A stretch of DNA of 64,000 nt, from NCBI GenBank assembly GCA_964611625.1, contig CAZTAM010000008.1, positions 45,387 through 109,386 on the forward strand, given 5' to 3'. Each line of letters begins with the position of its first letter. Position 1 is the first letter of the stretch. This DNA comes from an uncultured Nitrospiraceae bacterium (GTDB lineage: Bacteria; Nitrospirota; 9FT-COMBO-42-15; HDB-SIOI813). Shown one piece after another: positions 45,156 to 64,000 of the stretch. Both the position numbers and the translations under genes were made by a program. Below the pieces are notes generated by a model. That model saw only the letters and a list, made by a program, of their open reading frames with translations. It was not told the origin of the DNA and ran no database searches.

Positions 45156-47369
45156 TTATTTTAACTTCGTAGCCGGGTCTCCGAAGAAGATGAAGGTCTG
45201 GACGACGTCCTCCATGATCGCCCCTCTTGTATATGACTCCGCCTTGGCCTTGGATACCGCCTCTCCTAATGTAATATCCTCACTGAAAATAATATCGTAC
45301 AATTCCCGCGCAAGCGGGTCATGGTCCGAGAGATACCCCCATGGGCTTGCCCCGAAGAACGCTACAGCACCTTTATTCCGGGCAAGCAGAAGCGCTTCCG
45401 CTATTGAGGTAAAGGGTTTCTCATCTGCAAGAACGAAATAGCCGTTAAGACAGTTCAAGGCAACAACAAATGGATAGCTCGTATTTTTAAGACCCGCTAC
45501 ATCCCCGGATGAAAATATATTATTTGCCCAGTCAGACACGGCACCATGTCCTGTGTAATTTACTATCAGGGGATTTGAATCAATTGCAGATATGATTGCC
45601 GGTTTAAATCCTGATTGAAGCTCCCTTTGATACACTTTGTTCGGAATATAACCAGGAGTCTTTATTATGTCTGCAATGGAATCTGACAATCCATCAAATC
45701 TGGGGTCATCGTCATCTGCAATCAGTACAACATCCCTTGATTTGATAAGAGATCTTTCATGTGACATAATCTTGGAAACCACCGTTGAAACATCATCAGG
45801 AAACTTTGCGGGGATCCTTCCGATATTCATATCAGGCAGGATATTGTCATCGACATCCACAAACCAATTATCACTCGGCACTTCTCCAATTCCCGGATAA
45901 TTATAGAGGTATGCAGGTACATAACTCTTAATAGCATTATTTTCTCCATTCCCGCTTAAATCCTTATAGTCAACCGTAGCATCACCTACCAGCAGTACAA
46001 AAACGGGCCTGGTTGCCCATTGATCATAGGCATATTTAAGAAACGCTTTGATGGCATGCGGGGTCTCTACACCACTGCCAAATTCATCATATATATCACT
46101 AACCTTAACTGTAAGCATGGTGTATCCCTGCTGAGCCCTGAAATCTGCAAGGGGTTTGATCGCATCAGCGAAGTCTTCGTGCGTAATAATGATGTAGTCT
46201 GCAGGATTTGAAGTTATATCAGAACGTGTATATTGCTCAATAACGGGCATCGCCTTCTGGTCTGACGCAATTGCAATAAACACTCTTTTATTATCATAAG
46301 GACCAGAAAATGATACCTCATAATCTCCTTCTGACAGCTTCTTCGGTTCAGGTATGAGAATCTTCTGAACATTTTTCTGATCTGTTATTTCATAGACAGA
46401 TACATCATTTGAAGAAAAGTTTGAGACGTTAACAGATTTATTTCCGGTAAACTCCAGGACATTATGTTCAGCCTTATATTCATGGTTATATACAACCTCG
46501 AACCAGTCGAGATAAAACAGTCCGCCTCCGGCACTCTCAATTGTTAAATTATTAGGGCCATTATTAAAGACCGTCGCAGGTATTCCTGAGATTTCTATGT
46601 CATACGGATCCTGGCTATCCCACACCTGATTCCAAACAGGAGAATTATTAACATAAACCTTAATATAGTGGTCAAAACTAATAGACTGGAGACGTATTTT
46701 TATGGAAACCGGCACTGTCTTGTCAATATATCTTGCACTAAACGGATAGGATATCTTATCATTAGGGAAGATCCTATCCCCCCAGAACCAGTGTTCTCTT
46801 TCTTTAATGCCGGAGGATAATTTTAGTTCAGGATAGTTCTTCTGGACATACATGGTATCCTCTTCCATATGTAATCGCCGGGTAAATGATAAAACAGAAG
46901 AGGCTGGTTGTCCGGAGTATGGAGTTACTCTTGCCATACTTTTACCGGTCTTTTCCCCTATGGATAACCAGTAAACGTTGGTCTCTGTGAACCTGAACCG
47001 GGTGTCGCTGCGGCCTATCGCCATACCATAAAACTCTATGAAGTCTCCACGGTCAAAAATACTGTTACTGTTGCTGTCAACAAAATCAAGCGGGATATCA
47101 ATGCCCTGATTTGATAGGCTTATTGTAGAAGGTGCAAAAGATACGGATGAACAGTCTTTGTACAGATCTGAAAAAGAAAATCTATAAATACCATCTTTAC
47201 TGACCTTAATCTTTGCAATCTTACCGGTTCTGGCGCAAGGAAGGGTTACCTTGCTGCCTCCCTTATTACCGCTATTATTATCTCCCCCGGAAGTCGCACT
47301 TCCTCCTCCACCAGAACCACAACCAGCAAGGAAGGATACAATGATGAGTAGAAAAAGATATTTTTTCAT
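45156..47369 (-). CDS. Lipoprotein cysteine peptidase, family C25 (gingipain/PorU-like caspase fold)
   Basis: Lipobox FLAGC followed by a Gly/Ser linker. C25-like core ADYIIITHEDF...VLLVGDA...RIPA...NYTGHGA (His608, 45546-45548) ...VVALNCLNGYF (Cys640, 45450-45452). Confidence 0.75.
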   Translation of the reverse strand: MKKYLFLLIIVSFLAGCGSGGGGSATSGGDNNSGNKGGSKVTLPCARTGKIAKIKVSKDGIYRFSFSDLYKDCSSVSFAPSTISLSNQGIDIPLDFVDSNSNSIFDRGDFIEFYGMAIGRSDTRFRFTETNVYWLSIGEKTGKSMARVTPYSGQPASSVLSFTRRLHMEEDTMYVQKNYPELKLSSGIKEREHWFWGDRIFPNDKISYPFSARYIDKTVPVSIKIRLQSISFDHYIKVYVNNSPVWNQVWDSQDPYDIEISGIPATVFNNGPNNLTIESAGGGLFYLDWFEVVYNHEYKAEHNVLEFTGNKSVNVSNFSSNDVSVYEITDQKNVQKILIPEPKKLSEGDYEVSFSGPYDNKRVFIAIASDQKAMPVIEQYTRSDITSNPADYIIITHEDFADAIKPLADFRAQQGYTMLTVKVSDIYDEFGSGVETPHAIKAFLKYAYDQWATRPVFVLLVGDATVDYKDLSGNGENNAIKSYVPAYLYNYPGIGEVPSDNWFVDVDDNILPDMNIGRIPAKFPDDVSTVVSKIMSHERSLIKSRDVVLIADDDDPRFDGLSDSIADIIKTPGYIPNKVYQRELQSGFKPAIISAIDSNPLIVNYTGHGAVSDWANNIFSSGDVAGLKNTSYPFVVALNCLNGYFVLADEKPFTSIAEALLLARNKGAVAFFGASPWGYLSDHDPLARELYDIIFSEDITLGEAVSKAKAESYTRGAIMEDVVQTFIFFGDPATKLK

Positions 47370-47409
47370 TATTTACTTAAGATTAACTGCATTTTACGTG
47401 CCTGTATAA

Positions 47410-50400
47410 TTATCGTTTACCCGGGGACAGCCTATTTTCAGGACGACTTGATTTGCCAGGTACCTGTATTTTCTGTTTTTCAGTTGATATTTCAACAGGT
47501 TCTGATTCTTTAACAGACCCGTCATTTGACACTGCCTCAATCCTGTATTTATAGACTCTGTTATTTCGTACACCTGCATCTCTGAATGTGTAAAGAAGAC
47601 CCCTTTCTCCGGCCTGTGATGAGAAATATGGTATCGGTATAGTGTTAACTATTTCTCCCTTTTTATCTTTATTATCCCATCTCTGAACATTAAATCTGCT
47701 TATCTTTCCGACTGACACCCATGTGAGAACAGCCTTTCCATCTTCATCAATCGTTACCTCAAACGGCTCAGTCACTTTGTCCCCGTCTTTAACCTGTCTG
47801 ACACCCAATTCATTGCCATTGTCATCTTCTATCTTGATTTCAAACTCACCGGGAGAAGGATATTCTTCTTTTACAGGCTCTGCTGACACCTTACCTTTAG
47901 CTGCATAGGTACTTTCTGACCCACGATCGGTCAACTCATAGCCTGTAACTTCTTTACCCACTTCATCTGTGATGATATTTCCCTCGTTAATTGCGTCTTC
48001 AGCTGGAGAACTAACTTGTTGATCTGCCTCATTAATAGCCATGGAAGGGCTGACAATTAGAGGGACATCTCCTGCTTCAGCCGATGATGGCAGAGCTGTT
48101 GAATCTGTAACCTGATTTGAAGGAGTTGCAGAAGCAATCATATGGGTACTTATACTGCCATTAATGTCTACATTTTCCAGTTTATAGTAATAAGTAACTC
48201 CATTTTCCACATCCGTGTCCTCAAAGTTGTAAGTTTTACCAGAGGTCGGAGAACCCTTGGACCTTATAAGCCAGCTGTTAATCCTGGTAAATGGTCCAGA
48301 CATGGTTGGCCCTCTCAAGATATTAAATCCCATACTGTCAACTTCCGCAGCTGTTGACCATGTCAGCAGTATCTTGTCTGCAATGCCGACTGCTTTGAAG
48401 GATGTAAGTGTAACAAGAGTGGCTTCTTCTACTGCTGCAGAAAATTCTGAGAAGCTGTATACATCTCCGCATACGAAGTTGTTATTTACATCAAGTACCA
48501 CTGTGCGGTCCCTGAAGATGCCGCCCTCAACATGCAGCCACCTTAAGCCTCTCTCTCCGCCGTAACCAACACCAAAGTATCTCTGATCCGCATATGTAAA
48601 ACACATCCTGACTTTTCCGGTATATGTCGCAGTTGTCCATATATCGAAGTATGCAGGCGGTGAGCCATGAAGGAAGCCGGATGGGAGAGTTGAACCGGTC
48701 TGGGAATTTGTAACATATGTGTCACCTGTAGCCGTAACCTGATCAAAGGTTATAGTCACGTTTACATCCGGTTTCACTACAACATTTAACCCGACTGGTG
48801 TGTAGGTGTTTGTTACGACAGGACCGCTCAGGTTTCCGGATTGGGGCAATAATGCCGACTCAAGCCCGTCCGAAGCATCAAAGTAATAATTATGTGTTCC
48901 GTCAGTCAGTGTATTACTGTAAATATATTGCTCACCATTCGCATAGTTTCCATCCCTTAATGATGCTGCTGCTGAAGCGTCCACTGCCATTGAATTACAT
49001 GTACCGTCCAGGCACAATCTGATAGATGAAGGCGCCTGATTGTCCAGGTCGGTGTAGACTGTTTTGAATCTGAATATAACATTTGTATTTCCATTATCAG
49101 GATCCACACCATCAGTAACATATCCGGCCTCTGCAGAGAATGACAGAGTCGGCTTATAGTTGACACGCGGACCGTTAAGGCTCCCGGATAAAGGTGTTTT
49201 TGTGTATGCCAGTCCATCCATGGTCTCGAAATAATAAACATGATTACCAGGGTTAAGGGTATTAATTGCGAAGGTATACTGCTCGCCGTTGCTGTATATG
49301 CCGTCTCTTAGTGTAGAATTCACGGCCGACGTATCAAGGCTCATTGCCGTGCAGGGGGTTAAATCAATGCATACCCTGACATACGTCGGCGGATTATTGT
49401 TGATATCGCGATACACAATCTTGTACCTGTAGGTAGCACTGCTGATTCCAATATTGGGTTCAACGCCATCTCCGCTGCCGTAACCCGTTTCAGTAGGATA
49501 ATTGAGTTCCGGCGGTACATTCGTCATTGATATGGATGCCTGGCCCGTAGCGCTTCCCTGAACAGAGTTGGCGGTAACTGTCGCACTTCCTGCAGTAGTG
49601 GCAGAACGCATAACAAATGTAATTATTCCTCCGCTTACAGAAACCTGAATACCAGGTGTAACTGCGTCAGCGTCTGATGTTGTAATAGTCCCCATACTGG
49701 TAGAAACGGTGATCAGAGTTCCATTGGAGACAGTATTATTGTATACATCCCTGATGACACCGCTTGTAATGGTGCTTTGAGAGAGACCATCTGCCGGAAT
49801 GGACGCCGGGACAGGGGTCAGGGAGATCGTCCCATAAGGTTCACCTGAGACAAAATCAATCTGTGTGCTTCCACTGGCACTCCCCTGTACTGAGAAGGCT
49901 GTTATAACTGCACTGCCTGAAACTGTTACTGATCTTACAACGAAACTTATAACTCCATTAACAGTTGCCACCTGAACACCGGCGTATACTCCACTTGCAT
50001 CAGCAGTCGTGATAGTCCCTCTGTCAGTTGCTACTGTTATTAGCGTCCCATCGAGCACTGTATTGCCATTGGCATCAGTTATTATGCCGCTGGTTACAGT
50101 ACTTAATGATAGACCATCGGCTACTATACTTGCCGGACTTGGTGTAAGTACTACTGCGCCGGAAGGATTGCCGGGGAGTAAGGTAATCTGAGATGTACCA
50201 GCAGCAGTACCGGACACAGACTGGCCGGTTATGACGGCCGTGCCGGCGACTGTACCGCTCTGGACTATAAAACTTATAACGCCGTTAACCGTCGGTACCT
50301 GAATACCCGCATAAGCGCCGCTGGCATCCGTAGTAGTAATAGTGCCGAGGTCGGTCGCGACTGTTATCAATGTCCCGTCCTGCACTGTATTACCATATGC

Positions 50401-56400: not shown

Positions 56401-59400
56401 TGCTGACAGCGACTGGTTATATGAAAGATTAACTGTACCATCTGACAGAGACGATGTCGTAAGCAAGAGTGCACTGTATATCTGGATAGAGAGCGCCTTT
56501 GTGGCCGATGCACCATTAGCATCCGTAACCTGTACTGTAAAGTTGCTTGTCCCGGCTGTCGTCGGTGTACCGCTGATTGCTCCTGTGGATGCATTAAGGG
56601 TAAGCCCGGCGGGAAGTGTGCCAACTGTTACAGCCCATGTATAGGGCGTCTTGCCGCCGGAGGCTAAAAGCGTCTGGCTATATGAAGAACTGGCTGTACC
56701 ATCTGACAGCGCCGCTGTACTTACACTGACTGATCCGTATATAGTAATTGATAATGCCTTGTCCTTTATAAAACCATTAACATCCGTAACACGCACCGTT
56801 ATGTTGCTCGTACCGGCTGTGGTAGGCAAACCGCTTATCTCTCCGGTACCACCATTAAGGCTGAGGCCGGATGGAAGCACACCTACCACCACAGACCAGC
56901 CAAGAGGGGATTTACCACCGGTCGCAGCAAGCGTCTGGCTGTAGGCAAGATCAATTGTACCGTCTGACAGAGCTGTCGTCGTTATGGTCAGAGTATCGTA
57001 TACCGTAACAGACAGCGCCTGACTTGCTGTCGCTCCATTCGCATCCTGTACCTGCACCGTAAAGTTGCTCACCCCGGCAGCAGCAGGCGTACCGCTGACT
57101 ACACCGGATGAGCTGTTAAGACTTGTGCCGGATGGAAGCCCCCCTGCTGTCACACTCCAGCTATATGGCGTCTTGCCGCCGCTTGCCGACAAAACCTGAC
57201 TGTAGGAGGAACCAGCCATACCGTCAGGCAGTGATGTGGTGTTAATAGAAATTGCTGAGTATATGATGATTGACAGCGCCTTCGTCGCCACTGCCCCATT
57301 CGCATCCATTACCTGTACTGTAAAGTTTGATGTGCCGGCTGTATCAGGAGTCCCGCTGATTGCACCACTGCCGCTGTTTAAACTTAACCCTGACGGCAGT
57401 GTGCCTGCTATGACCGACCACACATATGGCGTCTTGCCGCCGCTTGCCGTCAGACCCTGGCTGTAGGCAAGGCTTACCGTGCCGTCTGTAAGTGATGTGG
57501 TAGTAACTGATACCACTGTATATACGATTATAGACAGCGCCTGGCTCGATACTGCCCCGTTCGCATCTGTCACCCTGACGGTAAAGTTACTCGTACCGGA
57601 TACAGAAGGTGTCCCTGAGATAACTCCGGTAACACCGTTTAACACCAGGCCGGTCGGAAGGCTGCCAGCTGTAACAGCCCATGTATATGGCGTCTTGCCG
57701 CCTGCTGCCGAAAGCGCCTGGCTGTACGCTGCATTCACTGTACCGTCAGCAAGCACAGCCGTAGAAACACTCACTGCACTGTAGACCGTAATGCTCAACG
57801 CCTTCGTCTGCGTAGAAAGATTGTTGTCAGTTACCTGAACCGTAAAGTTGCTCGTACCGGCTGTAGCAGGAGTACCACTGATTGCCCCGGTAGAACTGTT
57901 TATGCTGAGACCAGGAGGCAGGCTGCCAACCGTAACAGCCCATGTATACGGCGGCTGACCACCGGACGCCGACAACATCTGGCTGTAGGCGGCAGTAACT
58001 GTACCATCTGAAAGCGCTGCCGTTGTAATCGTCAGTCCTGAGTAAATCGTCACAGACAGCGCCTGGCTTGCTGTACGAGCGCCACTGTCACTCACCTGCA
58101 CTGTAAAGTTCCAGGTACCAGTGCCAGAAGGCGTTCCGCTTATCTCACCGGTAGAACCATTCAGACTCAGTCCCGTCGGAAGGGTGCCGGAGATCACACT
58201 CCATGTATATGGCGTCTTACCGCCGGCGGCGGCCAGCGTCTGGCTGTACGAAAGACTGATAGTACCGGCTGAAAGAGCAGAGGTCGTTACACTAAGAGGA
58301 TTATATATATCTATCGCCAATGCCTGATCAGACGTCGCTCCATTCGAATCCGTCACACGCACCGTAAAGTTGCTCGTACCGGACACTGAAGGCGTGCCGC
58401 TTATAACACCCGTACCACTATTAAGACTCAAACCGGTTGGAAGAGTTCCGGCAGGAAGACTCCAGCTATATGGCGTCTTGCCGCCTGCTGCTACAAGTGT
58501 CTGGCTGTAGGATACACCTACCGTGCCGTCAGACAATGCGGCAGTCGTCACTGACACAGCTCCGTAGATTACTATGGCAAGGGCCTTAGTCGCTGTCGCA
58601 CCATTAGCATCCTGTGCCTGTACCGTAAAATTAGATGTACCCGAGGCAGAAGCTGTACCGCTTATCGCTCCACTGCCGCTGTTTAAACTCAATCCTGCAG
58701 GCAACGACCCCACTGTCACTGACCACGCAACAGGACTCTTGCCGCCAGATGATACAAGTGTCTGATTGTACGCTAAACCAACAGTGCCATCAGATAATGA
58801 CGACGTAGTTACTGTCAATGCACTGTAAACCGTTATAGACAGAGCCTGGCTCGCCGTTGCACTGTTAGCATCTGTAACCTGTACTGTAAAATTATATGTG
58901 CCGGCAGCTGAAGGAACGCCGCTGATTACTCCTGTCGTACTGTTAAGGCTCAGTCCAGCTGGTACAGATCCGGTTATAACGCTCCATGAATATGGGATGT
59001 TGCCCCCCGCTGCAGCAATGGGTGATGAGTATCCTGCATTAACAGTTCCATCAGGCAGCGATGCCGTTGTCACAGAAAGACCGCCGTATACCTGAATAGA
59101 AAGCCCCCTCGTTGCAACCCCGCCATATACATCCTGTACCTGCACTGTAAACGTAGCAAGTCCGGAAAGCGTTGGTGCTCCGGATATAGCCCCCGTAGCG
59201 CCATTGAGTGTCAGACCTGCCGGCAGGCTTCCGGCTGTCACAGACCATATATAAGGCGTCTTGCCGCCAGCAGCAGCAAGTGACGCCGCATAAGCACCGC
59301 TTACCGTACCATCAGGCAGGGCTGCTGTCGTGATGGCAACCGCTGAATAAATGGTAATTGACAGGCTCTTATTGTTTGTAAATCCATTGTTATCAGTTAC

Positions 59401-62400
59401 CCGTGCTGTAAAACCATAGTTTCCCGAAGCAGAAGGTATGCCGCTGATCTCACCTGTTGCGCTGTTTAAACTAAGACCTGATGGCAGGCTCCCTGAGGCA
59501 AGGCTCCATACATATGGGGTCTTCCCTCCTGCAGCCGCCAAGGTCTGTAAATAAGATGCGCTTACCGTTCCCTCAGCAAGTGACGCGGTCGTTACAGATA
59601 GTGTGTCATATATTGTTATCGAAAGCACTCTGGCGGCAGTCGCACTATTGGCATCCTGCACCTGCACTGTAAAGTTACTGGTACCTGCAGTGGTTGGCGT
59701 ACCTGAGAGTGCCCCTGTAGCAGCATTTAGTGTCAGACCGGCTGGAAGTACCCCAACTGATACACTCCATGTATAAGGCGTCTTGCCTCCGGAGGCTGTC
59801 AGCGTCTGGTTGTAGGAAGACCCTATGTTACCATCCAGAAGGGAAGAGGTAGTAACGCTAAGGCCGCTATATATTATTATTGACAATGCCCTGGATGCCG
59901 CAGCGCCGTTGGCATCTGTTGCCCTTACTGTAAAGTTTGAGGTGCCTCCCGCTGTCGGCGTACCGCTTATCTCTCCGGTAGCACTGTTAAGACTGAGCCC
60001 TGCCGGCAGTGTACCTACTGTTACAGCCCATGTAACAGGCGACTTGCCTCCGCTGCTTGCAAGCGTCTGACTGTAGGCAAGACTAACCGTACCATCGGAT
60101 AATGCCGTAGTTGTCACTGACAGCGCAGGATATATCGTTATGGATAATGCGCTCTCCACGTACGCACCATTAGCGTCTGTAGCCCGTAACGTAATATTCT
60201 CCGTGCCGGATGCCGTCGGCGTACCACTTATTGCTCCTGTCCCGCTGTTAAGACTTAGCCCTGCCGGCAGCACGCCCACAGTGATTGACCAGGCAACAGG
60301 CAGCCTTCCCCCGGTAGATGTCAGCGTCTGGCTGTAGGCAAGGTTCACCGTACCATCGGAAAGCGATGCAGTCGTAATCACAGGATATGCATTAACTGTT
60401 ATAGACAGCGCCTTCGTCGCTGTAGCGCTGTTGTCATCCGTTACCTGTACCGTAATATTTGATACACCGGCTGTCGTCGGCGTCCCGCTTATTTCACCAG
60501 TAGCACCGTTAAGCGTAACCCCTGCAGGCAGGCTCCCCACTGTTACAGCCCACGTATACGGCGTCTTGCCGCCGGCAGCTGTCAGCGTCTGGCTGTAGGC
60601 AGTTGACTCCGTCGCCTGCGGCAGTGATGCCGTAGTCACTGCAAGCCCGGAGAAAATAGTAATAGTTAACGCCTGGCTTGATATTGCCCCATTCGCATCC
60701 GTCGCACGTACCGTAAAGTTCGATGTACCGCCTGTAGTGGGCGTCCCGCTTATCACACCGGTCCCACTGGTTAATGTCACACCTAAAGGAAGGCTCCCGG
60801 CAACAACCGACCAGGTAACAGGCGCCTTACCGCCTGTGGATGTAAGCGTCTGACTGTATGCAAGACTCACAGTACCATCAGACAACGCCGTCGTCGTCAC
60901 TGAAAGCGCCGCATATACCGTAACAGACAGCGCACTCTCTGAGTATGCGCCATTCGCATCCGTCACACGCGCAGTAAAGTTCGATGTGCCGGCTGCAGTA
61001 GGCGTCCCGCTTATGACCCCGGTGGCTGTGTTAAGATTCAGACCGGCAGGAAGACTGCCCGTAGATATAGACCAGCTATATGGCGTCTTGCCGCCTGTTG
61101 CTGACAGCGACTGGTTATATGAAAGATTAACTGTACCATCTGACAGAGACGATGTCGTAAGCAAGAGTGCACTGTATATCTGGATAGAGAGCGCCTTTGT
61201 GGCCGATGCACCATTAGCATCCGTAACCTGTACTGTAAAGTTGCTTGTCCCGGCTGTCGTCGGTGTACCGCTGATTGCTCCTGTGGATGCATTAAGGGTA
61301 AGCCCGGCGGGAAGTGTGCCAACTGTTACAGCCCATGTATAGGGCGTCTTGCCGCCGGAGGCTAAAAGCGTCTGGCTATATGAAGAACTGGCTGTACCAT
61401 CTGACAGCGCCGCTGTACTTACACTGACTGATCCGTATATAGTAATTGATAATGCCTTGTCCTTTATAAAACCATTAACATCCGTAACACGCACCGTTAT
61501 GTTGCTCGTACCGGCTGTGGTAGGCAAACCGCTTATCTCTCCGGTACCACCATTAAGGCTGAGGCCGGATGGAAGCACACCTACCACCACAGACCAGCCA
61601 AGAGGGGATTTACCACCGGTCGCAGCAAGCGTCTGGCTGTAGGCAAGATCAATTGTACCGTCTGACAGAGCTGTCGTCGTTATGGTCAGAGTATCGTATA
61701 CCGTAACAGACAGCGCCTGACTTGCTGTCGCTCCATTCGCATCCTGTACCTGCACCGTAAAGTTGCTCACCCCGGCAGCAGCAGGCGTACCGCTGACTAC
61801 ACCGGATGAGCTGTTAAGACTTGTGCCGGATGGAAGCCCCCCTGCTGTCACACTCCAGCTATATGGCGTCTTGCCGCCGCTTGCCGACAAAACCTGACTG
61901 TAGGAGGAACCAGCCATACCGTCAGGCAGTGATGTGGTGTTAATAGAAATTGCTGAGTATATGATGATTGACAGCGCCTTCGTCGCCACTGCCCCATTCG
62001 CATCCATTACCTGTACTGTAAAGTTTGATGTGCCGGCTGTATCAGGAGTCCCGCTGATTGCACCACTGCCGCTGTTTAAACTTAACCCTGACGGCAGTGT
62101 GCCTGCTATGACCGACCACACATATGGCGTCTTGCCGCCGCTTGCCGTCAGACCCTGGCTGTAGGCAAGGCTTACCGTGCCGTCTGTAAGTGATGTGGTA
62201 GTAACTGATACCACTGTATATACGATTATAGACAGCGCCTGGCTCGATACTGCCCCGTTCGCATCTGTCACCCTGACGGTAAAGTTACTCGTACCGGATA
62301 CAGAAGGTGTCCCTGAGATAACTCCGGTAACACCGTTTAACACCAGGCCGGTCGGAAGGCTGCCAGCTGTAACAGCCCATGTATATGGCGTCTTGCCGCC

Positions 62401-64000
62401 TGCTGCCGAAAGCGCCTGGCTGTACGCTGCATTCACTGTACCGTCAGCAAGCACAGCCGTAGAAACACTCACTGCACTGTAGACCGTAATGCTCAACGCC
62501 TTCGTCTGCGTAGAAAGATTGTTGTCAGTTACCTGAACCGTAAAGTTGCTCGTACCGGCTGTAGCAGGAGTACCACTGATTGCCCCGGTAGAACTGTTTA
62601 TGCTGAGACCAGGAGGCAGGCTGCCAACCGTAACAGCCCATGTATACGGCGGCTGACCACCGGACGCCGACAACATCTGGCTGTAGGCGGCAGTAACTGT
62701 ACCATCTGAAAGCGCTGCCGTTGTAATCGTCAGTCCTGAGTAAATCGTCACAGACAGCGCCTGGCTTGCTGTACGAGCGCCACTGTCACTCACCTGCACT
62801 GTAAAGTTCCAGGTACCAGTGCCAGAAGGCGTTCCGCTTATCTCACCGGTAGAACCATTCAGACTCAGTCCCGTCGGAAGGGTGCCGGAGATCACACTCC
62901 ATGTATATGGCGTCTTACCGCCGGCGGCGGCCAGCGTCTGGCTGTACGAAAGACTGATAGTACCGGCTGAAAGAGCAGAGGTCGTTACACTAAGAGGATT
63001 ATATATATCTATCGCCAATGCCTGATCAGACGTCGCTCCATTCGAATCCGTCACACGCACCGTAAAGTTGCTCGTACCGGACACTGAAGGCGTGCCGCTT
63101 ATAACACCCGTACCACTATTAAGACTCAAACCGGTTGGAAGAGTTCCGGCAGGAAGACTCCAGCTATATGGCGTCTTGCCGCCTGCTGCTACAAGTGTCT
63201 GGCTGTAGGATACACCTACCGTGCCGTCAGACAATGCGGCAGTCGTCACTGACACAGCTCCGTAGATTACTATGGCAAGGGCCTTAGTCGCTGTCGCACC
63301 ATTAGCATCCTGTGCCTGTACCGTAAAATTAGATGTACCCGAGGCAGAAGCTGTACCGCTTATCGCTCCACTGCCGCTGTTTAAACTCAATCCTGCAGGC
63401 AACGACCCCACTGTCACTGACCACGCAACAGGACTCTTGCCGCCAGATGATACAAGTGTCTGATTGTACGCTAAACCAACAGTGCCATCAGATAATGACG
63501 ACGTAGTTACTGTCAATGCACTGTAAATCGTTATAGACAGAGCCTTTGTTGCTATTGCGCCATTGGAATCCTGCGCCTGAACCGTGAAATTAGATGTGCC
63601 GGATGCAGCAGGGGTACCACTGACTGCTCCGGTTGCGCTGTTTAGACTCAGACCAGATGGGATAGAGCCGGATATTATACTCCATAAATACGGCGTCTTA
63701 CCACCAGAAGCAGCCAGCGTCTGGCTGTATCCGGCATTGGCAGTTCCATCTGCAAGACTGTCCGTTGCTACACTAATAGCACTGTAAATGGTAATTGAAA
63801 GATTCTTCGTGTTCGTTACAAGATTATTGTCTGTCACCTGAACGGTGACAGGATAACTCCCTGCGGTTGTTGGTGTCCCGCTGATCGTTCCTGTAGAGGA
63901 ATTGAGTGATAACCCGGCCGGTAGTGTGCCCAGGGTAATACTCCAGGCATAGGGTGTTGAGCCTCCTGTAGCCGATAGTGTCGTATTGTATGCCAGGTTC
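47410..64000 (-). CDS. Giant multi-domain surface protein/adhesin, 5' end outside the window (more than 5,530 codons visible)
   Basis: A single open frame runs from the right edge to TAA at 47410-47412. The ATG at 63837 used by the ORF track is internal, because the same frame stays open to base 64000 and still encodes He_PIG repeat sequence. Domain order is He_PIG x about 41, Big_1-like arrays, ZU5-like modules, two Cys-containing modules and two FN3-like modules. Confidence 0.9.
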   Translation of the reverse strand, partial: NLAYNTTLSATGGSTPYAWSITLGTLPAGLSLNSSTGTISGTPTTAGSYPVTVQVTDNNLVTNTKNLSITIYSAISVATDSLADGTANAGYSQTLAASGGKTPYLWSIISGSIPSGLSLNSATGAVSGTPAASGTSNFTVQAQDSNGAIATKALSITIYSALTVTTSSLSDGTVGLAYNQTLVSSGGKSPVAWSVTVGSLPAGLSLNSGSGAISGTASASGTSNFTVQAQDANGATATKALAIVIYGAVSVTTAALSDGTVGVSYSQTLVAAGGKTPYSWSLPAGTLPTGLSLNSGTGVISGTPSVSGTSNFTVRVTDSNGATSDQALAIDIYNPLSVTTSALSAGTISLSYSQTLAAAGGKTPYTWSVISGTLPTGLSLNGSTGEISGTPSGTGTWNFTVQVSDSGARTASQALSVTIYSGLTITTAALSDGTVTAAYSQMLSASGGQPPYTWAVTVGSLPPGLSINSSTGAISGTPATAGTSNFTVQVTDNNLSTQTKALSITVYSAVSVSTAVLADGTVNAAYSQALSAAGGKTPYTWAVTAGSLPTGLVLNGVTGVISGTPSVSGTSNFTVRVTDANGAVSSQALSIIVYTVVSVTTTSLTDGTVSLAYSQGLTASGGKTPYVWSVIAGTLPSGLSLNSGSGAISGTPDTAGTSNFTVQVMDANGAVATKALSIIIYSAISINTTSLPDGMAGSSYSQVLSASGGKTPYSWSVTAGGLPSGTSLNSSSGVVSGTPAAAGVSNFTVQVQDANGATASQALSVTVYDTLTITTTALSDGTIDLAYSQTLAATGGKSPLGWSVVVGVLPSGLSLNGGTGEISGLPTTAGTSNITVRVTDVNGFIKDKALSITIYGSVSVSTAALSDGTASSSYSQTLLASGGKTPYTWAVTVGTLPAGLTLNASTGAISGTPTTAGTSNFTVQVTDANGASATKALSIQIYSALLLTTSSLSDGTVNLSYNQSLSATGGKTPYSWSISTGSLPAGLNLNTATGVISGTPTAAGTSNFTARVTDANGAYSESALSVTVYAALSVTTTALSDGTVSLAYSQTLTSTGGKAPVTWSVVAGSLPLGVTLTSGTGVISGTPTTGGTSNFTVRATDANGAISSQALTITIFSGLAVTTASLPQATESTAYSQTLTAAGGKTPYTWAVTVGSLPAGVTLNGATGEISGTPTTAGVSNITVQVTDDNSATATKALSITVNAYPVITTASLSDGTVNLAYSQTLTSTGGRLPVAWSITVGVLPAGLSLNSGTGAISGTPTASGTENITLRATDANGAYVESALSITIYPALSVTTTALSDGTVSLAYSQTLASSGGKSPVTWAVTVGTLPAGLSLNSATGEISGTPTAGGTSNFTVRATDANGAAASRALSIIIYSGLSVTTSSLLDGNIGSSYNQTLTASGGKTPYTWSVSVGVLPAGLTLNAATGALSGTPTTAGTSNFTVQVQDANSATAARVLSITIYDTLSVTTASLAEGTVSASYLQTLAAAGGKTPYVWSLASGSLPSGLSLNSATGEISGIPSASGNYGFTARVTDNNGFTNNKSLSITIYSAVAITTAALPDGTVSGAYAASLAAAGGKTPYIWSVTAGSLPAGLTLNGATGAISGAPTLSGLATFTVQVQDVYGGVATRGLSIQVYGGLSVTTASLPDGTVNAGYSSPIAAAGGNIPYSWSVITGSVPAGLSLNSTTGVISGVPSAAGTYNFTVQVTDANSATASQALSITVYSALTVTTSSLSDGTVGLAYNQTLVSSGGKSPVAWSVTVGSLPAGLSLNSGSGAISGTASASGTSNFTVQAQDANGATATKALAIVIYGAVSVTTAALSDGTVGVSYSQTLVAAGGKTPYSWSLPAGTLPTGLSLNSGTGVISGTPSVSGTSNFTVRVTDSNGATSDQALAIDIYNPLSVTTSALSAGTISLSYSQTLAAAGGKTPYTWSVISGTLPTGLSLNGSTGEISGTPSGTGTWNFTVQVSDSGARTASQALSVTIYSGLTITTAALSDGTVTAAYSQMLSASGGQPPYTWAVTVGSLPPGLSINSSTGAISGTPATAGTSNFTVQVTDNNLSTQTKALSITVYSAVSVSTAVLADGTVNAAYSQALSAAGGKTPYTWAVTAGSLPTGLVLNGVTGVISGTPSVSGTSNFTVRVTDANGAVSSQALSIIVYTVVSVTTTSLTDGTVSLAYSQGLTASGGKTPYVWSVIAGTLPSGLSLNSGSGAISGTPDTAGTSNFTVQVMDANGAVATKALSIIIYSAISINTTSLPDGMAGSSYSQVLSASGGKTPYSWSVTAGGLPSGTSLNSSSGVVSGTPAAAGVSNFTVQVQDANGATASQALSVTVYDTLTITTTALSDGTIDLAYSQTLAATGGKSPLGWSVVVGVLPSGLSLNGGTGEISGLPTTAGTSNITVRVTDVNGFIKDKALSITIYGSVSVSTAALSDGTASSSYSQTLLASGGKTPYTWAVTVGTLPAGLTLNASTGAISGTPTTAGTSNFTVQVTDANGASATKALSIQIYSALLLTTSSLSDGTVNLSYNQSLSATGGKTPYSWSISTGSLPAGLNLNTATGVISGTPTAAGTSNFTARVTDANGAYSESALSVTVYAALSVTTTALSDGTVSLAYSQTLTSTGGKAPVTWSVVAGSLPLGVTLTSGTGVISGTPTTGGTSNFTVRATDANGAISSQALTITIFSGLAVTTASLPQATESTAYSQTLTAAGGKTPYTWAVTVGSLPAGVTLNGATGEISGTPTTAGVSNITVQVTDDNSATATKALSITVNAYPVITTASLSDGTVNLAYSQTLTSTGGRLPVAWSITVGVLPAGLSLNSGTGAISGTPTASGTENITLRATDANGAYVESALSITIYPALSVTTTALSDGTVSLAYSQTLASSGGKSPVTWAVTVGTLPAGLSLNSATGEISGTPTAGGTSNFTVRATDANGAAASRALSIIVFPALSVTTASLTDGTVNLIYTQSVSVIGGKTPYTWTVQAGTLPAGVSLNNSSGSITGTPTSAGTANFTIRVTDSNGATADQALTITVYPVLAITTSALSDGTVNLAYSQTVAASGGKTPLTWALTAGVLPAGLSLNASTGEISGTTTTAGTSNFTIQATDANGAVSTRALSIAVFSGLSVSTASLSDGTVNWSYSQTLTAGGGKTPYSWSILSGTLPTGLSLTGGTGVIGGTPASAGTSNFTVQVTDDNGATATRSLSITVYTALSLTTTSVNDSTVSAAYNQSLIATGGKSPYVWSLSAGSLPPGLALNTSTGLISGTPTTENTYNFTAQVQDANGATDTKPLTIVVYPSISVTTASLADGTVNFAYNQTLTVAGGKLPYAWSVIIGSLPAGLSLNGSTGVISGTATAAGTSNFTLQVVDANGAIASRSLSINVYSSLAIITSSLPAGTRTAPYSQTPAASGGKPPLTWSIAAGVLPAGVTLNSATAEISGTPSAVETAGFTLQAIDANGAAATKALSIQVNDVPAITTASLNSGIAGVSYSQALSFTGATVPVVWSLTSGSLPAGLMLNSSSGVISGTPAIRGTSNFTVQIADAYNITASRAFSITVSAATPSKANIAASKTTIISNGTDSSVLTVTVYDSYDNLVEDGTTVTVAATNGTVTGTTTTVNGVVSRTITSTTSGTATLGVESPTGTTLTNLTGNTNLSFMADVPSQASIAASKTSVVADGVDQTVLTITVRDAQGNLITNGTSVTLTTSLGTVTGSGNTVNGVVTRYLSGLTAGTAVLGVESPSGTTLAAVTGDTGISLLPGVPAKAVISASKTAVVANGLDSSILTITVFDANNNLVANGTTVAVTTTVGTVTGTGTTVNGVVTRTLTSTVSGTGVLGVQAPAGTTLSNVTGNLTIVFNPGVPSDANISASKTTIIANSTDSSVLTVTIRDSSGNLVPDGTTVRVVSSLGTITGSGTTVSGVITRTLTGTVSGTANLSVESPTGTVLSVITGNSNIVLQPGPAAGTISLTPVPGSIIANGISTSIITSGVIADAYGNAVSDGTLVTVSTNFGTITNSDASGADAGIQVVTASGVVNFTVQSAVTSGTADVTAQSVLGNAAGTTQIVFLAGTPSAANSTITASSPVYSDGISASTVTITVRDSNMNLVSGATVSLTSSRGISDIISQPVGVTNANGQIIGTVASLATGDAIISATVNGTVTVVQTAGINFYNTQTGSNITVSPSGNTSLTFDMVITIGITSSVQVGSGTPLPAGYVSPVYFNIGTTSAFSGNVTVCITYNEATYASREGLVKILHNEGGVLVDRTTSVNTATNTVCGIVTSFSEFATGATSATNLQITTSPQNVVAGYVSGAVQVEAKDDFGVTDTGYSGTVNITSNSASLYLDTNSGGTFSLTAIPVNMVNGIGTFFFKDTAIGTPTINIADAAALLLPAGQQETILSDVPSGTISLSPVPAGIAANGIATSTVTSGIITDVHGNSVADGTLITVSASNGSITTADASGAIAGIQVSALNGVISFIVQSSTVAGTSNISALSVQGSAAGSTQITFLPGLPAGTISLTPLPASMVADGLTTSIVTSGVIVDAYGNTVQDGTLITVATDLGTITTTDASGAYAGIQVPTVNGVISFIVQSGTVAGTAVITGQSVSGTAAGTSQITLLPGNPSGAVVLTPSPASIVADGLSLSTVTSGIITDANGNTVLDGTLITVATDRGTITTADASGVYAGVQVATVNGVISFVVRSVTVSGSAVITAFSVQGSASGSTQIDFVSGEPYGTISLTPVPASIPADGLSQSTITSGVIRDVYNNTVSNGTLITVSTSMGTITTSDADAVTPGIQVSVSGGIITFVMRSATTAGSATVTANSVQGSATGQASISMTNVPPELNYPTETGYGSGDGVEPNIGISSATYRYKIVYRDINNNPPTYVRVCIDLTPCTAMSLDTSAVNSTLRDGIYSNGEQYTFAINTLNPGNHVYYFETMDGLAYTKTPLSGSLNGPRVNYKPTLSFSAEAGYVTDGVDPDNGNTNVIFRFKTVYTDLDNQAPSSIRLCLDGTCNSMAVDASAAASLRDGNYANGEQYIYSNTLTDGTHNYYFDASDGLESALLPQSGNLSGPVVTNTYTPVGLNVVVKPDVNVTITFDQVTATGDTYVTNSQTGSTLPSGFLHGSPPAYFDIWTTATYTGKVRMCFTYADQRYFGVGYGGERGLRWLHVEGGIFRDRTVVLDVNNNFVCGDVYSFSEFSAAVEEATLVTLTSFKAVGIADKILLTWSTAAEVDSMGFNILRGPTMSGPFTRINSWLIRSKGSPTSGKTYNFEDTDVENGVTYYYKLENVDINGSISTHMIASATPSNQVTDSTALPSSAEAGDVPLIVSPSMAINEADQQVSSPAEDAINEGNIITDEVGKEVTGYELTDRGSESTYAAKGKVSAEPVKEEYPSPGEFEIKIEDDNGNELGVRQVKDGDKVTEPFEVTIDEDGKAVLTWVSVGKISRFNVQRWDNKDKKGEIVNTIPIPYFSSQAGERGLLYTFRDAGVRNNRVYKYRIEAVSNDGSVKESEPVEISTEKQKIQVPGKSSRPENRLSPGKR
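48430..48810 (-). other. ZU5-like beta-sandwich module 2 of the giant protein, ending VYSFSEF (S-F-S = 48448-48456)
   Basis: Paralog of module 1 (see that entry). Confidence 0.4.
48815..49515 (-). repeat. Two copies of an unrecognised module of about 113 aa with paired Cys residues
   Basis: Y(R/F)(Y/F)K.VY.D.(N/D)N..P..(V/I)R.C.D...C..M..D.S....LRDG.Y.NGEQY.......G.H.YYF...DGL.....P.SG.L.GP.V. Confidence 0.6.
49517..50825 (-). repeat. Four tandem 109-aa (327-bp) Ig-like repeats
   Basis: GTISL(S/T)P.PA...ADG...S.VTSG.I.D..GN.V.DGTLITV....G.ITT.DASG...G.QV...NGVISF.V.S.TV.G...I...SV.G.A.G..QI. Diverged at nucleotide level. Confidence 0.75.
51165..51510 (-). other. ZU5-like beta-sandwich module 1 of the giant protein, ending VTSFSEF (S-F-S = 51175-51183)
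   Basis: Shares the pattern LP.G(Y/F)......YF.I.TT..(F/Y).G.V..C..Y.......E.L..LH.EGG...DRT......N.VCG.V.SFSEF with module 2. Confidence 0.4.
51510..53340 (-). repeat. Block of about 6 Big_1-like (invasin/intimin-type) Ig domains, about 97-109 aa each
   Basis: Repeats of I.ASKT.(V/I).A(N/D)G.D.S.LT(V/I)TV.D..GNLV.(D/N)GT.V.....G(T/S).TG.G.TV.GV.TR.L....G. Confidence 0.7.
55178..58847 (-). repeat. Copy A of a 3.65-kb (14-domain) apparently exact intragenic repeat
   Basis: Offset of 4698 bp to copy B. The left boundary was read base by base. One mismatch at 58830, after which identity continues to 58847. Confidence 0.85.
59876..63545 (-). repeat. Copy B of the 3.65-kb intragenic repeat
   Basis: The main-frame translation is identical over about 1,217 aa. 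Seven antisense ORF pairs are identical at a +4698 offset. Several 60-nt lines were checked base by base. Confidence 0.85.

What the first reader, a model, noticed from the sequence alone, without database searches (positions are those of the whole stretch)
45156..64000. Giant He_PIG/Big_1 surface protein followed directly by a C25 (gingipain/PorU-fold) lipoprotein peptidase: candidate dedicated processing or anchoring module
- Seen in sequence:
  - A gene of more than 5,530 codons ends at 47410.
  - A 737-aa gene starts 40 bp downstream on the same strand, with no terminator between them.
  - The downstream product has a lipobox (FLAGC) and a C25-like His/Cys dyad (TGHG at 45546-45548, LNCLNG at 45450-45452).
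  - The giant protein's C-terminus shows no LPXTG, PEP-CTERM, T9SS-CTD or RTX-like signature that I can recognise. It ends in two FN3-like modules and a short basic tail.
- Established knowledge:
  - Family C25 contains the gingipains and PorU.
  - PorU is the T9SS C-terminal signal peptidase/sortase that removes a C-terminal domain and attaches cargo to the cell surface.
  - LapG/LapA shows that a dedicated periplasmic Cys protease can control retention of a giant adhesin.
- Inference: the C25 lipoprotein matures, anchors or releases the giant protein. As far as I know this pairing has not been described outside Bacteroidota-type T9SS.
Basis: partly seen in the sequence, partly recalled or inferred. 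Interest (0 to 1): 0.75.

Follow-up and report, generated by a model that had tools for sequence, protein, structure and literature searches.

The report
PorU-like peptidase paired with tagged giant protein
A membrane-tethered cysteine peptidase built like the type IX secretion "sortase" PorU sits 40 bases after a giant surface protein, and across at least ten phyla this kind of peptidase keeps company with a small, uncatalogued domain that the giant carries at its C-terminus, which points to an undescribed protein-processing or sorting system.

Summary
**Observation: confirmed.**
- A >5,529-codon He_PIG/Big_1 gene ends at 47410.
- A 737-aa lipoprotein gene (45156-47369, minus strand) starts 40 nt later, with no terminator-like site between them.
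- The lipoprotein has a full Peptidase_C25 domain (E 1.6e-82).
- His608 and Cys640 align to the RgpB catalytic dyad.
- Its whole architecture and predicted fold match PorU best. It lacks PorU's C-terminal third and scores below the PorU cut-off.

- Giant-to-C25 adjacency is confined to one Nitrospirota clade. There the whole neighbourhood is conserved, so adjacency alone is weak evidence.
- The giant's two C-terminal "FN3-like modules" belong to a large family ("GFN" domain) that matched no Pfam or NCBIfam model. In most proteins it is the extreme C-terminal domain.
- 46 of 79 C25 loci from many phyla carry a GFN domain within 10 kb.
- 64 of 65 of those domains lie on the peptidase's strand.
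- 20 are fused to the peptidase, 17 of them in the cargo-then-C25 order.
- Other loci add a radical-SAM/SPASM, HprK-like and signal-peptidase-like cassette.

**Best reading (about 0.5):** the lipoprotein is a dedicated PorU-like processing or anchoring enzyme for GFN-tagged proteins, including the giant.

**Limits:** cleavage is not shown, and most GFN genes are not next to a C25 gene.

The parts
47410..64000 (-). Giant surface-protein gene, 3' part. It has 5,529 codons in the window and the N-terminus lies beyond the window edge. The stop codon is at 47410-47412.
   Evidence: - Open frame to 63999.
- He_PIG x41 stretches, Big_1, Invasin_D3.
54348..64000 (-). Array of at least 31 tandem 261-nt (87-aa) He_PIG repeats. 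It contains a higher-order 4,698-nt (18-unit) duplication.
   Evidence: the repeat finder family D1; copies at 55131 and 59829 are 93% identical.
48121..48408 (-). GFN module 1 (ORF residues 5198-5293). FN3-type fold, with the motifs W.T..E.D..GFNILR and YYYKLENVD.
   Evidence: - HMM hit E 4e-33.
- pLDDT > 90.
- FN3 fold matches.
- Homologs in 16,959 protein clusters at E <= 1e-10.
47851..48117 (-). Acidic low-complexity linker between the two GFN modules.
   Evidence: - pLDDT < 50.
- Variable in length and sequence among relatives.
47473..47850 (-). GFN module 2, including a conserved N-terminal beta-hairpin (EYPSPxDFxIKIEDDxGNExxVRQ).
   Evidence: - Invariant columns in alignment A1.
- HMM hit E 3e-08.
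- pLDDT > 90.
- Pfam fn3 at 6.7e-05, below cut-off.
47413..47472 (-). Short basic K/P/R-rich C-terminal tail (EKQKIQVPGKSSRPENRLSPGKR). It has no hydrophobic anchor.
   Evidence: - Translation.
- Tail length runs from 4 to 25 aa among relatives.
47370..47409 (-). 40-nt intergenic spacer.
   Evidence: - Sequence.
- No terminator-like or strong promoter-like site on the minus strand in the gap.
45156..47369 (-). PorU-like C25 lipoprotein gene (737 aa).
   Evidence: - PF01364 at 1.6e-82.
- PorU HMM at 266.8 bits over profile positions 3-732 of 1095.
- AF2 model pLDDT 86.
- Best PDB fold match is PorU 6za2, E 3.9e-31.
47232..47369 (-). Lipoprotein signal peptide (lipobox LAGC, Cys17 at 47319-47321) followed by a Gly/Ser-rich flexible tether (residues 18-46).
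   Evidence: - Translation.
- Cys17 is present in >= 90% of 12 relatives.
- pLDDT < 50 for residues 1-39.
46197..47231 (-). N-terminal all-beta region (residues 47-391), homologous to the N-terminal part of PorU.
   Evidence: - NCBIfam PorU and PorU2 alignments start at residues 47-52.
- Beta-strand model.
- About 800 columns aligned to 6za2.
45162..46196 (-). C25 catalytic domain (residues 392-736), with His608 (45546-45548) and Cys640 (45450-45452).

Best explanation
**Proposal.** The 737-aa protein is an envelope-tethered, catalytically competent PorU-type C25 endopeptidase, possibly a transpeptidase. Its clients are proteins carrying the FN3-like 'GFN' C-terminal module.

**Steps, marked shown or inferred**
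1. The giant He_PIG protein encoded 40 nt upstream is its cis-encoded client (inferred from comparative genomics).
2. The giant is exported by Sec. This is inferred from complete relatives with the same C-terminal cassette, because the window's own N-terminus is missing.
3. The peptidase is lipidated at Cys17 and held on a roughly 30-residue flexible tether (read from the sequence and the model; not tested).
4. It recognises the C-terminal cassette (GFN-1, linker, GFN-2, basic tail) and cuts next to a GFN module (inferred by analogy).
5. By analogy with PorU and the T9SS CTD, the cut either trims the protein or joins the new C-terminus to an envelope acceptor. That would give an otherwise anchorless giant its attachment, or a controlled release (inferred).

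**Shown here:** the enzyme family, the intact dyad, the PorU-like architecture, and the cross-phylum genomic coupling of C25 with GFN, including gene fusions.

**Not shown here:** recognition, cleavage, the cleavage site and the fate of the product.
For: **Enzyme identity**
- Full C25 domain with the dyad aligned to RgpB His211/Cys244 and invariant in 62 homologs.
- The PorU HMM covers residues 47-736.
- The best structural match is PorU 6za2 at E 3.9e-31, ahead of gingipains at about 2e-20.

**Clade synteny**
- The giant's C-terminus is followed directly by the C25 lipoprotein in L001-L006, L009-L011, L014 and L096-L103. C25 identity in these loci runs from 48% to about 80%.

**Cross-phylum coupling**
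- In 79 GTDB loci chosen only by C25 homology, 46 carry a GFN domain within 10 kb.
- 64 of 65 domain hits are on the C25 strand.
- 34 lie in upstream genes, mostly within 1.4 kb, against 10 downstream.
- 17 are fused directly N-terminal to the PorU-like module, which is the window's gene order as a single polypeptide. 3 are fused directly C-terminal.
- Blind clustering of neighbours ranks GFN proteins first: 31 loci, 42 ORFs, all co-oriented.
- Background rate: 16,959 of 1.84e9 protein clusters at E <= 1e-10. That predicts far fewer than one hit in the roughly 1.15 Mb of flanks.

**GFN behaves as a C-terminal tag**
- It is the last domain, with a tail of <= 15 aa, in 95 of 106 metagenome ORFs.
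- Several such proteins can sit on one contig, with lengths of 110-2,379 aa.
- The consensus end is HGPVSATP-[R/K]-[WL][IL]YG[IL]GK.
- The two-module cassette ends proteins of 443-5,476 aa that have Sec signal peptides.

**Context argues for maturation rather than scavenging**
- C25 homologs are also co-oriented with PqqD-radical SAM/SPASM (22 loci), signal-peptidase-I-like (18 loci) and HprK-related (13 + 12 loci) genes.

**Specificity lead**
- The residue aligned to the RgpB S1 Asp163 is Asp563, and it is D/E in 49 of 62 relatives.
- The tails carry basic residues. In other lineages an R/K sits at the domain/tail junction in 58 of 72 unique tails.
Against: - No experiment or model shows binding or cleavage.
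- Within the clade the entire neighbourhood (metK, ahcY, RR/HK, lnt, argS, tgt, yajC) is conserved, so adjacency there may be inherited.
- One relative, L007, has small ORFs instead of the giant in the 2 kb available upstream.
- The reverse association is weak.
  - Cassette-bearing giant P0273 has no adjacent C25.
  - Of three other GFN proteins on long contigs, only one has a C25 within 10 kb, and that one is on the opposite strand.
  - Only 1 of 72 non-clade metagenome GFN loci has a C25, although most of those contigs are short.
- Genome-level co-occurrence was not testable.
- In Anaerolineae the C25-adjacent GFN proteins carry the domain at the N-terminus of a Thr/Pro-rich stalk ending in a TM helix. 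That does not fit a simple C-terminal signal.
- The window clade's tails lack the conserved motif seen elsewhere.
- 33 of 79 C25 loci show no GFN domain; some of these have short flanks.
- The S1 alignment lies in a gap-rich region of about 23% identity.
Confidence: 0.5

Rival explanations
1. **General surface or nutritional protease.** The lipoprotein is a gingipain-like endopeptidase that digests environmental protein. It sits next to the giant only because the gene order is inherited in this clade.
For: - C25 'gingipain-like' genes are the most abundant exported peptidase genes in sediment metagenomes and have been read as scavenging endopeptidases (PMC6752024).
- The whole neighbourhood is syntenic in the clade.
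- Most GFN proteins are not next to a C25 gene.
Against: - It does not explain 64 of 65 co-oriented GFN domains, the 20 fusions, or GFN being the top neighbour family across phyla.
- It does not explain the recurrent radical SAM/SPASM-PqqD, HprK-like and signal-peptidase-like partners.
- The whole-length resemblance is to PorU rather than to a gingipain. No Propeptide_C25 domain was found.
Confidence: 0.2
2. **Docking rather than processing.** The lipid-anchored C25 protein, through its N-terminal beta-domains, or a membrane-anchored GFN stalk protein, holds GFN-tagged proteins at the envelope non-covalently. Proteolysis serves only for regulated shedding, in the manner of LapG.
For: - The giant has no anchor of its own.
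- The only lipid-anchored product of the gene pair is the peptidase.
- Anaerolineae encode SP-GFN-stalk-TM proteins beside C25.
- GFN's nearest solved single-domain relatives are Fn3 modules of cellulosomal proteins.
Against: - The invariant His/Cys dyad argues for catalysis as the selected function.
- No interaction evidence exists.
- No c-di-GMP-type regulator is linked to the pair.
Confidence: 0.12
3. **Peptide-maturation protease.** The C25 family is primarily the protease of a RiPP-like peptide-maturation pathway (radical SAM/SPASM-PqqD, HprK-like). GFN proteins are co-located surface proteins and not its substrates. The window keeps only a remnant of that pathway.
For: About 28 loci have cassette genes within 5 kb of C25, co-oriented with it.
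Against: - None of the cassette genes is present in the 64-kb window or in the clade loci.
- 19 loci have GFN as the only recurrent neighbour.
- At least 12 loci have both GFN and cassette genes, so the two are not alternatives.
- No small precursor peptide gene was identified.
Confidence: 0.08

Closest known systems
[quoted passage not shown]
   Same: - Family C25 catalytic domain with a His/Cys dyad.
- The same N-terminal beta-domain region. The PorU HMM aligns over profile positions 3-732, and 6za2 is the best fold match.
- Genomic coupling to proteins that share a C-terminal beta-sandwich domain.
- Some family members carry that same C-terminal domain themselves (L032, L050, L053), just as PorU keeps its own CTD (PMC11285876).
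   Different: - It scores 266.8 bits against a cut-off of 420.
- It lacks the last roughly 360 PorU profile positions, including PorU's T9SS CTD.
- It is a lipoprotein.
- The giant matched no T9SS sorting-domain model in NCBIfam, and its C-terminal module matched FN3 structures, with no T9SS CTD structure among the top 50 fold matches.
- The family occurs in Nitrospirota, Chloroflexota, Acidobacteriota, Desulfobacterota, Poribacteria and other phyla.
- No T9SS genes were seen in the window ORFs that were scanned.
Gingipains RgpB and Kgp (family C25)
   Same: Catalytic domain fold and dyad. The residue aligned with the S1 Asp163 of RgpB is also Asp.
   Different: - No Propeptide_C25 domain, no haemagglutinin/adhesin domains and no T9SS CTD.
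- The N-terminal half is PorU-like.
- About 22% identity over the catalytic domain only.
LapG/LapA adhesin-release system
   Same: The concept only: a dedicated envelope cysteine protease encoded near a giant repeat adhesin and controlling its retention.
   Different: - From my own knowledge, LapG belongs to a different peptidase family, cuts an N-terminal retention module, and LapA is a T1SS/RTX substrate.
- None of these features is seen here. No RTX or T1SS signature was found in the C-terminal 999 aa.
Sorting enzyme plus C-terminal tag systems defined by comparative genomics (sortase/LPXTG, exosortase/PEP-CTERM, archaeosortase/PGF-CTERM)
   Same: - Many diverse secreted proteins share one C-terminal tag.
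- One processing enzyme is often encoded beside one of its clients.
- One tagged protein carries a 'choice-of-anchor Q' domain.
   Different: - The tag is a folded roughly 95-aa FN3-type domain with a 0-25-aa tail. It is not a motif + TM helix + basic cluster.
- The enzyme is a clan CD C25 peptidase.
- No NCBIfam or Pfam model matched the tag.

Membership tests
Peptidase family C25 (Pfam PF01364) | Profile match above the gathering score over the whole domain | tested here: met
   278.2 bits against a cut-off of 23, covering profile positions 1-374 of 374 and residues 392-736.
Peptidase family C25 (Pfam PF01364) | Catalytic His and Cys at the positions of RgpB His211 and Cys244 | tested here: met
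   - NYTGHG His608 and ALNCLNG Cys640 align to 1cvr.
- Both are invariant in 62 sequences.
Peptidase family C25 (Pfam PF01364) | Caspase-like alpha/beta catalytic fold | tested here: met
   The AF2 model (pLDDT 86) matches RgpB and Kgp structures at E about 2e-20, with TM about 0.65 on the target.
PorU, T9SS sortase (NCBIfam NF033707) | Score at or above the curated cut-off (420 bits) | tested here: not met
   266.8 bits. The related PorU2 model scores 206.9 against a cut-off of 450.
PorU, T9SS sortase (NCBIfam NF033707) | PorU-type N-terminal domains preceding the C25 domain | tested here: met
   - HMM positions 3-732 align to residues 47-736.
- 6za2 is the top fold match over about 800 columns.
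PorU, T9SS sortase (NCBIfam NF033707) | Its own C-terminal T9SS CTD, needed for export to the cell surface | tested here: not met
   - The protein ends with the C25 domain, and profile positions 733-1095 are absent.
- It carries an N-terminal lipobox instead.
PorU, T9SS sortase (NCBIfam NF033707) | Cargo carrying a T9SS type A or type B CTD | tested here: not met
   - No NCBIfam hit in the giant's last 999 aa.
- No Por_Secre_tail or CHU_C hit, even at E <= 10 on the modules.
PorU, T9SS sortase (NCBIfam NF033707) | T9SS machinery (PorV, Sov/SprA, PorK-N) in the genome | tested here: inconclusive
   - None among 26 window ORFs outside the finding that were scanned with Pfam.
- Six ORFs between 15932 and 23368 were not scanned.
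- The rest of the genome was not available.
Gingipain (RgpA/RgpB/Kgp type) | N-terminal Propeptide_C25 prodomain and a T9SS CTD | tested here: not met
   Only PF01364 was found in the protein. More distant homologs do carry PF08126.
LapG/LapA-type adhesin release | LapG-family protease, with a T1SS/RTX giant adhesin carrying an N-terminal retention module | tested here: not met
   - The protease is C25.
- No RTX or T1SS signature was found in the C-terminal 999 aa.
- The giant's N-terminus is outside the window.
- Complete cassette-bearing relatives have Sec signal peptides.
Known C-terminal sorting signals (LPXTG, PEP-CTERM, GlyGly-CTERM, PGF-CTERM, MYXO-CTERM and others) | Match to an NCBIfam/TIGRFAM sorting-domain model; a motif followed by a TM helix and a basic cluster | tested here: not met
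   - No model matched.
- The tail is hydrophilic, with no TM segment.
He_PIG / Big_1 repeat surface proteins | Tandem He_PIG (PF05345) and Big_1/Invasin_D3 Ig-like domains | tested here: met
   He_PIG scores 512.9 and 1217.8 bits, Invasin_D3 128.3 bits and Big_1 89.3 bits.
Radical SAM/SPASM-PqqD + HprK-related + signal-peptidase-like cassette seen beside C25 homologs | Those genes lie within a few kb of the C25 gene | tested here: not met
   BLAST of the cassette families against all ORFs of the window and of the clade loci found nothing.

The most novel reading that the evidence does not exclude
The GFN module and this PorU-like C25 subfamily together define a previously unrecognised, multi-phylum system that sorts or matures proteins through a C-terminal domain.
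- It would be a non-T9SS counterpart of CTD/PorU.
- The peptidase would remove or exchange the segment after the conserved ...HGPxSATP-[R/K] junction.
- Some lineages would add an accessory radical SAM/SPASM, HprK-like kinase and signal-peptidase-like cassette.
- The window would show its minimal two-gene form, attached to a giant adhesin.
Probability: 0.3. Interest if true: 0.85.

Novelty: new variant of a known kind. Interest (0 to 1): 0.7.

Why it matters
- C25 peptidases outside Bacteroidota are very abundant in environmental metagenomes and are routinely read as protein-scavenging enzymes (PMC6752024).
- If a large subfamily is instead a PorU-like processing enzyme for proteins with a shared C-terminal domain, many "hypothetical" surface proteins gain a common logic. 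The profile used here hit about 60,000 protein clusters at E <= 0.001, though that count includes generic FN3 arrays.
- That would cover how they are matured, anchored or released, in phyla with no known T9SS: Nitrospirota, Chloroflexota, Acidobacteriota, Desulfobacterota, Poribacteria.
- It would also suggest how anchorless giant adhesins are held on the cell.
- It would show what PorU's ancestors did before the T9SS existed.
- The hypothesis is directly testable with one recombinant enzyme and one 335-aa substrate.

Tried and rejected
**Ideas tested and dropped**
1. *T9SS membership.* The PorU HMM scores below its cut-off, the protein has no CTD, and the giant has no CTD. Rejected as an ortholog; kept as the closest analog.
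2. *The FN3-like module as a T9SS-type CTD.*
   - Pfam and NCBIfam give no hit.
   - Fold search returns FN3 domains and no T9SS CTD structure among the top 50 matches.
   - Some proteins have GFN followed by a genuine T9SS CTD (L065, TIGR04183 at 31.8 bits). The two are therefore distinct.
3. *Giant adjacency as a general rule.* Outside the Nitrospirota clade, giants next to C25 are rare. Rejected in favour of the GFN-domain association.
4. *A 'CFI-box'-type sorting model for the GCFI tails.* No NCBIfam hit. Left as an observation.

**Tests that gave weak or no answers**
5. *Reciprocal tests.*
   - Of P0169, P0225, P0161 and P0273 on long contigs, only one has a C25 nearby.
   - In the metagenome scan, 1 of 72 non-clade loci has a C25.
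   - The association is therefore reported as asymmetric.
6. *Literature searches.* Searches for PorU/C25 outside Bacteroidota, for Peptidase_C25 and for the tail motifs found no description of this pairing.

It was redone with A7.
9. *A search for 'ScmC'.* It returned only unrelated acronyms.
Full report
**1. What is in the window**

On the minus strand a single frame is open from the window edge (63999) to a TAA stop at 47410-47412, giving 5,529 codons. The N-terminus lies outside the window. The ORF listing shows the ORF only from an internal GTG.

Pfam finds 41 He_PIG stretches, Big_1 and Invasin_D3 domains, and a weak C-terminal fn3. The He_PIG part is an array of at least 31 tandem 261-nt units with an 18-unit (4,698-nt) higher-order duplication.

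Exactly 40 nt downstream a 737-aa ORF begins, at 45156-47369. No terminator-like site lies in the gap. Downstream come metK and ahcY, then a divergent response regulator and histidine kinase.

**2. The peptidase**

- PF01364 matches end to end (E 1.6e-82).
- His608 and Cys640 align to RgpB His211 and Cys244. Both are invariant in 62 homologs.
- The resemblance goes beyond the catalytic domain. The NCBIfam PorU model aligns profile positions 3-732 of 1095 to residues 47-736. The score is 266.8 bits against a cut-off of 420.
- A confident AF2 model (pLDDT 86, pTM 0.85) matches PorU 6za2 best (E 3.9e-31 over about 800 columns). RgpB and Kgp follow and cover only the catalytic half.
- What is missing is PorU's C-terminal third, including its own T9SS CTD. 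Instead there is a lipoprotein signal peptide and a disordered Gly/Ser tether.

It is therefore a PorU-like paralog and not a PorU ortholog.

**3. Relatives and synteny**

- About 50 full-length relatives (42-82% identity) come from 'Nitrospirae bacterium' MAGs and metagenomes.
- In these the order giant, C25, metK, (ahcY), RR/HK, lnt, argS, tgt, yajC is conserved. One complete giant is 7,652 aa.
- Because everything around the pair is conserved too, adjacency inside this clade is weak evidence on its own.
- In L007 the 2 kb available upstream of the C25 gene hold small ORFs instead.
- Lipoproteins of the same architecture occur widely in Anaerolineae and other phyla. A pattern scan of one genome per species returned more than 571 loci.

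**4. The giant's C-terminus is a recognisable cassette**

The last roughly 335 aa are conserved among the clade's giants. The order is an FN3-like module, a variable acidic linker, a conserved hairpin motif, a second FN3-like module, and a 4-25-aa K/P-rich tail.

AF2 models both modules at pLDDT > 90 with a disordered linker. Fold search returns FN3 domains. The best single-domain hits are Fn3 modules of Clostridium thermocellum proteins. No T9SS CTD structure appears among the top 50 matches.

Neither Pfam nor NCBIfam has a model that hits the module.

Searches with the cassette show that the module, which I call GFN after its GFNILR motif, is very widespread. The profile hits 60,608 protein clusters at E <= 0.001 and 16,959 at E <= 1e-10. 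The looser count includes generic FN3 arrays.

The whole two-module cassette ends proteins of 443-5,476 aa that begin with Sec signal peptides.

**5. GFN behaves like a C-terminal tag**

- In 80 metagenome loci found with a GFN alignment, 95 of 106 GFN ORFs end within 15 residues of the domain.
- Up to three such genes sit on one contig, and the N-terminal parts are unrelated to each other.
- The ends are stereotyped: HGPVSATP-[R/K]-[WL][IL]YG[IL]GK. A basic residue sits at the junction in 58 of 72 unique tails. Variants include ...RIYLPLVLK and RVIHNLR.
- Elsewhere GFN is followed by a T9SS type A CTD, by 'GCFI' tails, by a TM helix plus basic residues, or by dockerin-like repeats.
- One tagged protein carries a 'choice-of-anchor Q' domain.

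**6. Coupling of C25 and GFN**

I built a GFN HMM from hits that were independent of C25 and scanned 79 loci that had been chosen only by C25 homology. These loci cover Anaerolineae, Acidobacteriota, Desulfobacterota, Nitrospirota, Nitrospinota, Poribacteria, KSB1, Planctomycetota and Verrucomicrobiota, among others.

| Measure | Result |
|---|---|
| Loci with a GFN domain within 10 kb | 46 of 79 |
| Domain hits on the C25 strand | 64 of 65 |
| In upstream genes (mostly within 1.4 kb) | 34 |
| In downstream genes | 10 |
| Fused directly N-terminal to the PorU-like module | 17 |
| Fused directly C-terminal | 3 |

The N-terminal fusions reproduce the window's gene order in a single polypeptide, often as tandem paralogs.

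The domain's global frequency predicts far fewer than one hit in the roughly 1.15 Mb of flanks. Blind clustering of all ORFs within 5 kb puts GFN proteins first: 31 loci and 42 ORFs, all co-oriented.

In Anaerolineae the partners are small proteins whose only globular part is GFN: signal peptide, GFN, Thr/Pro-rich stalk, TM helix.

**7. Further partners in other lineages**

The same clustering reveals four more co-oriented families:
- a PqqD-fused radical SAM/SPASM enzyme (22 loci);
- a signal-peptidase-I-like S24/S26 protein (18 loci);
- two HprK-related-kinase-like families (13 and 12 loci).

This is the make-up of a peptide or protein maturation cassette. It argues that the family is a processing enzyme and not a scavenging one. 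None of these genes is in the window or in the clade loci, which hold the minimal cargo + peptidase form.

**8. Limits**

- The reverse association is weak.
  - Cassette-bearing giant P0273 has no adjacent C25.
  - Of three other GFN proteins on long contigs, one has a C25 4.3 kb away on the other strand and two have none.
  - Outside the clade only 1 of 72 metagenome GFN loci has a C25, although most contigs are short.
- This asymmetry fits one enzyme serving many dispersed clients, as with sortases or PorU. It equally allows GFN to be a general surface-protein module that the C25 family merely favours.
- Genome-level co-occurrence, binding and cleavage could not be tested.
- The window clade's tails lack the conserved motif of other lineages.
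- The window giant's own N-terminus, and hence its secretion route, is unseen.
- No T9SS or T1SS genes appear among the window ORFs that were scanned. Six ORFs between 15932 and 23368 were not scanned.

**9. Mechanism proposed**

1. The giant is exported by Sec.
2. The peptidase is lipid-anchored on a flexible tether.
3. It recognises the GFN cassette and cuts beside a GFN module.
4. The result is trimming, covalent anchoring by transpeptidation as PorU does (PMC11285876), or release.

A lead on specificity: the residue aligned to the RgpB S1 Asp163 is Asp563, and it is D/E in 49 of 62 relatives. The regions after GFN are rich in Lys and Arg. This rests on a low-identity alignment and is only a lead.

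**10. Verdict**

The link runs through an uncatalogued C-terminal FN3-type domain and not through 'He_PIG giants'.
- The enzyme is PorU-like but is not a T9SS component.
- The searches of the held library found no description of the pairing.
- I rate it a new variant of a known kind, with moderate-to-high interest.

Noticed in passing
L024, L026, L032, L036, L044-L047, L050, L058, L074, L075, L085, L089 (within 5 kb of the C25 match): C25 homologs in Desulfobacterota, Anaerolineae, Acidobacteriota and other lineages are co-oriented with four gene families:
- a PqqD-fused radical SAM/SPASM enzyme;
- a signal-peptidase-I-like S24/S26 protein;
- two HprK-related-kinase-like families (ScmC / HprK_rel_A/B-like).

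This looks like a peptide or protein maturation cassette. It is absent from the window.
   Followed up: partly
L104-L175 (metagenome loci); for example L153:3401-4789 and L146:8402-9739: - Dozens of unrelated secreted proteins end in the same way: a PT-rich linker, the GFN domain, then HGPVSATP-[R/K]-[WL][IL]YG[IL]GK-COOH.
- Variants of the tail include ...RIYLPLVLK and RVIHNLR.
- Up to three such genes sit on one contig.
- No Pfam or NCBIfam model covers the domain or the tail.
   Followed up: partly
L035, L048, L078 and L053 (C-termini); P0052: A Ser/Gly-rich stretch followed by a 'GCFI' motif (GGCFIKILGR, STCFISTLK, GGCFIGALQSLF, GCFIATVGE... then a TM helix, GCFIATAAYGS...) occurs after GFN or at the end of C25 homologs. 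It may be another C-terminal sorting motif. No NCBIfam hit was found.
   Followed up: partly
window 54348-64000 (-): The He_PIG region consists of at least 31 tandem 261-nt units. An 18-unit (4,698-nt) block is duplicated at about 93% identity (55131 against 59829). This kind of structure breaks assemblies, and most relatives' giants are cut at contig ends.
   Followed up: partly
window 48000-64000 compared with 1-48000: G+C is 46-54% across the giant gene and 39-46% in most of the rest of the window. The difference probably reflects the Gly/Thr/Ala/Ser-rich repeats and not foreign origin. This was not tested.
   Followed up: no
window 26436-28430 (-): A 664-aa protein with RCC1 repeats (WD40_RLD at 282.7 bits) and an fn3 domain lies between relA/spoT and an ABC substrate-binding protein + TonB-dependent receptor pair. 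RCC1-repeat proteins are uncommon in bacteria.
   Followed up: no
L012:4383-6189: An IS200-type Y1 transposase gene appears to split a cassette-bearing giant. A 1,356-aa partial ORF lies upstream, and the 277-aa GFN-GFN C-terminal piece (P0136) lies downstream.
   Followed up: no
L007:1-2010: In a relative whose C25 is 47% identical, the 2 kb upstream of the C25 gene hold small ORFs (one with a weak DUF6036 hit) instead of the giant's C-terminus. The downstream synteny is kept. The contig ends there, so loss of the giant is not established.
   Followed up: no
L054, L070, L077, L091: Blastocatellia carry two or three tandem paralogs of 1,300-2,600-aa proteins with the same layout: a variable N-terminal region, then GFN, then the PorU-like C25 module ending ...TWILFGDPTTRLR.
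   Followed up: partly
L094:1292-4045 (-): A UDP-glucose/GDP-mannose dehydrogenase gene carries an intein (Intein_splicing and LAGLIDADG hits). It lies in the contig that also holds a small GFN-TM protein, an ScmC-like gene, an ECF sigma factor and a C25 gene.
   Followed up: no
window 47410-63837 as listed by the ORF listing: the ORF listing reports the giant as a 5,475-aa ORF starting at GTG 63837, although the frame is open to the window edge. The start is an artefact of the listing rule and not a real start codon.
   Followed up: yes
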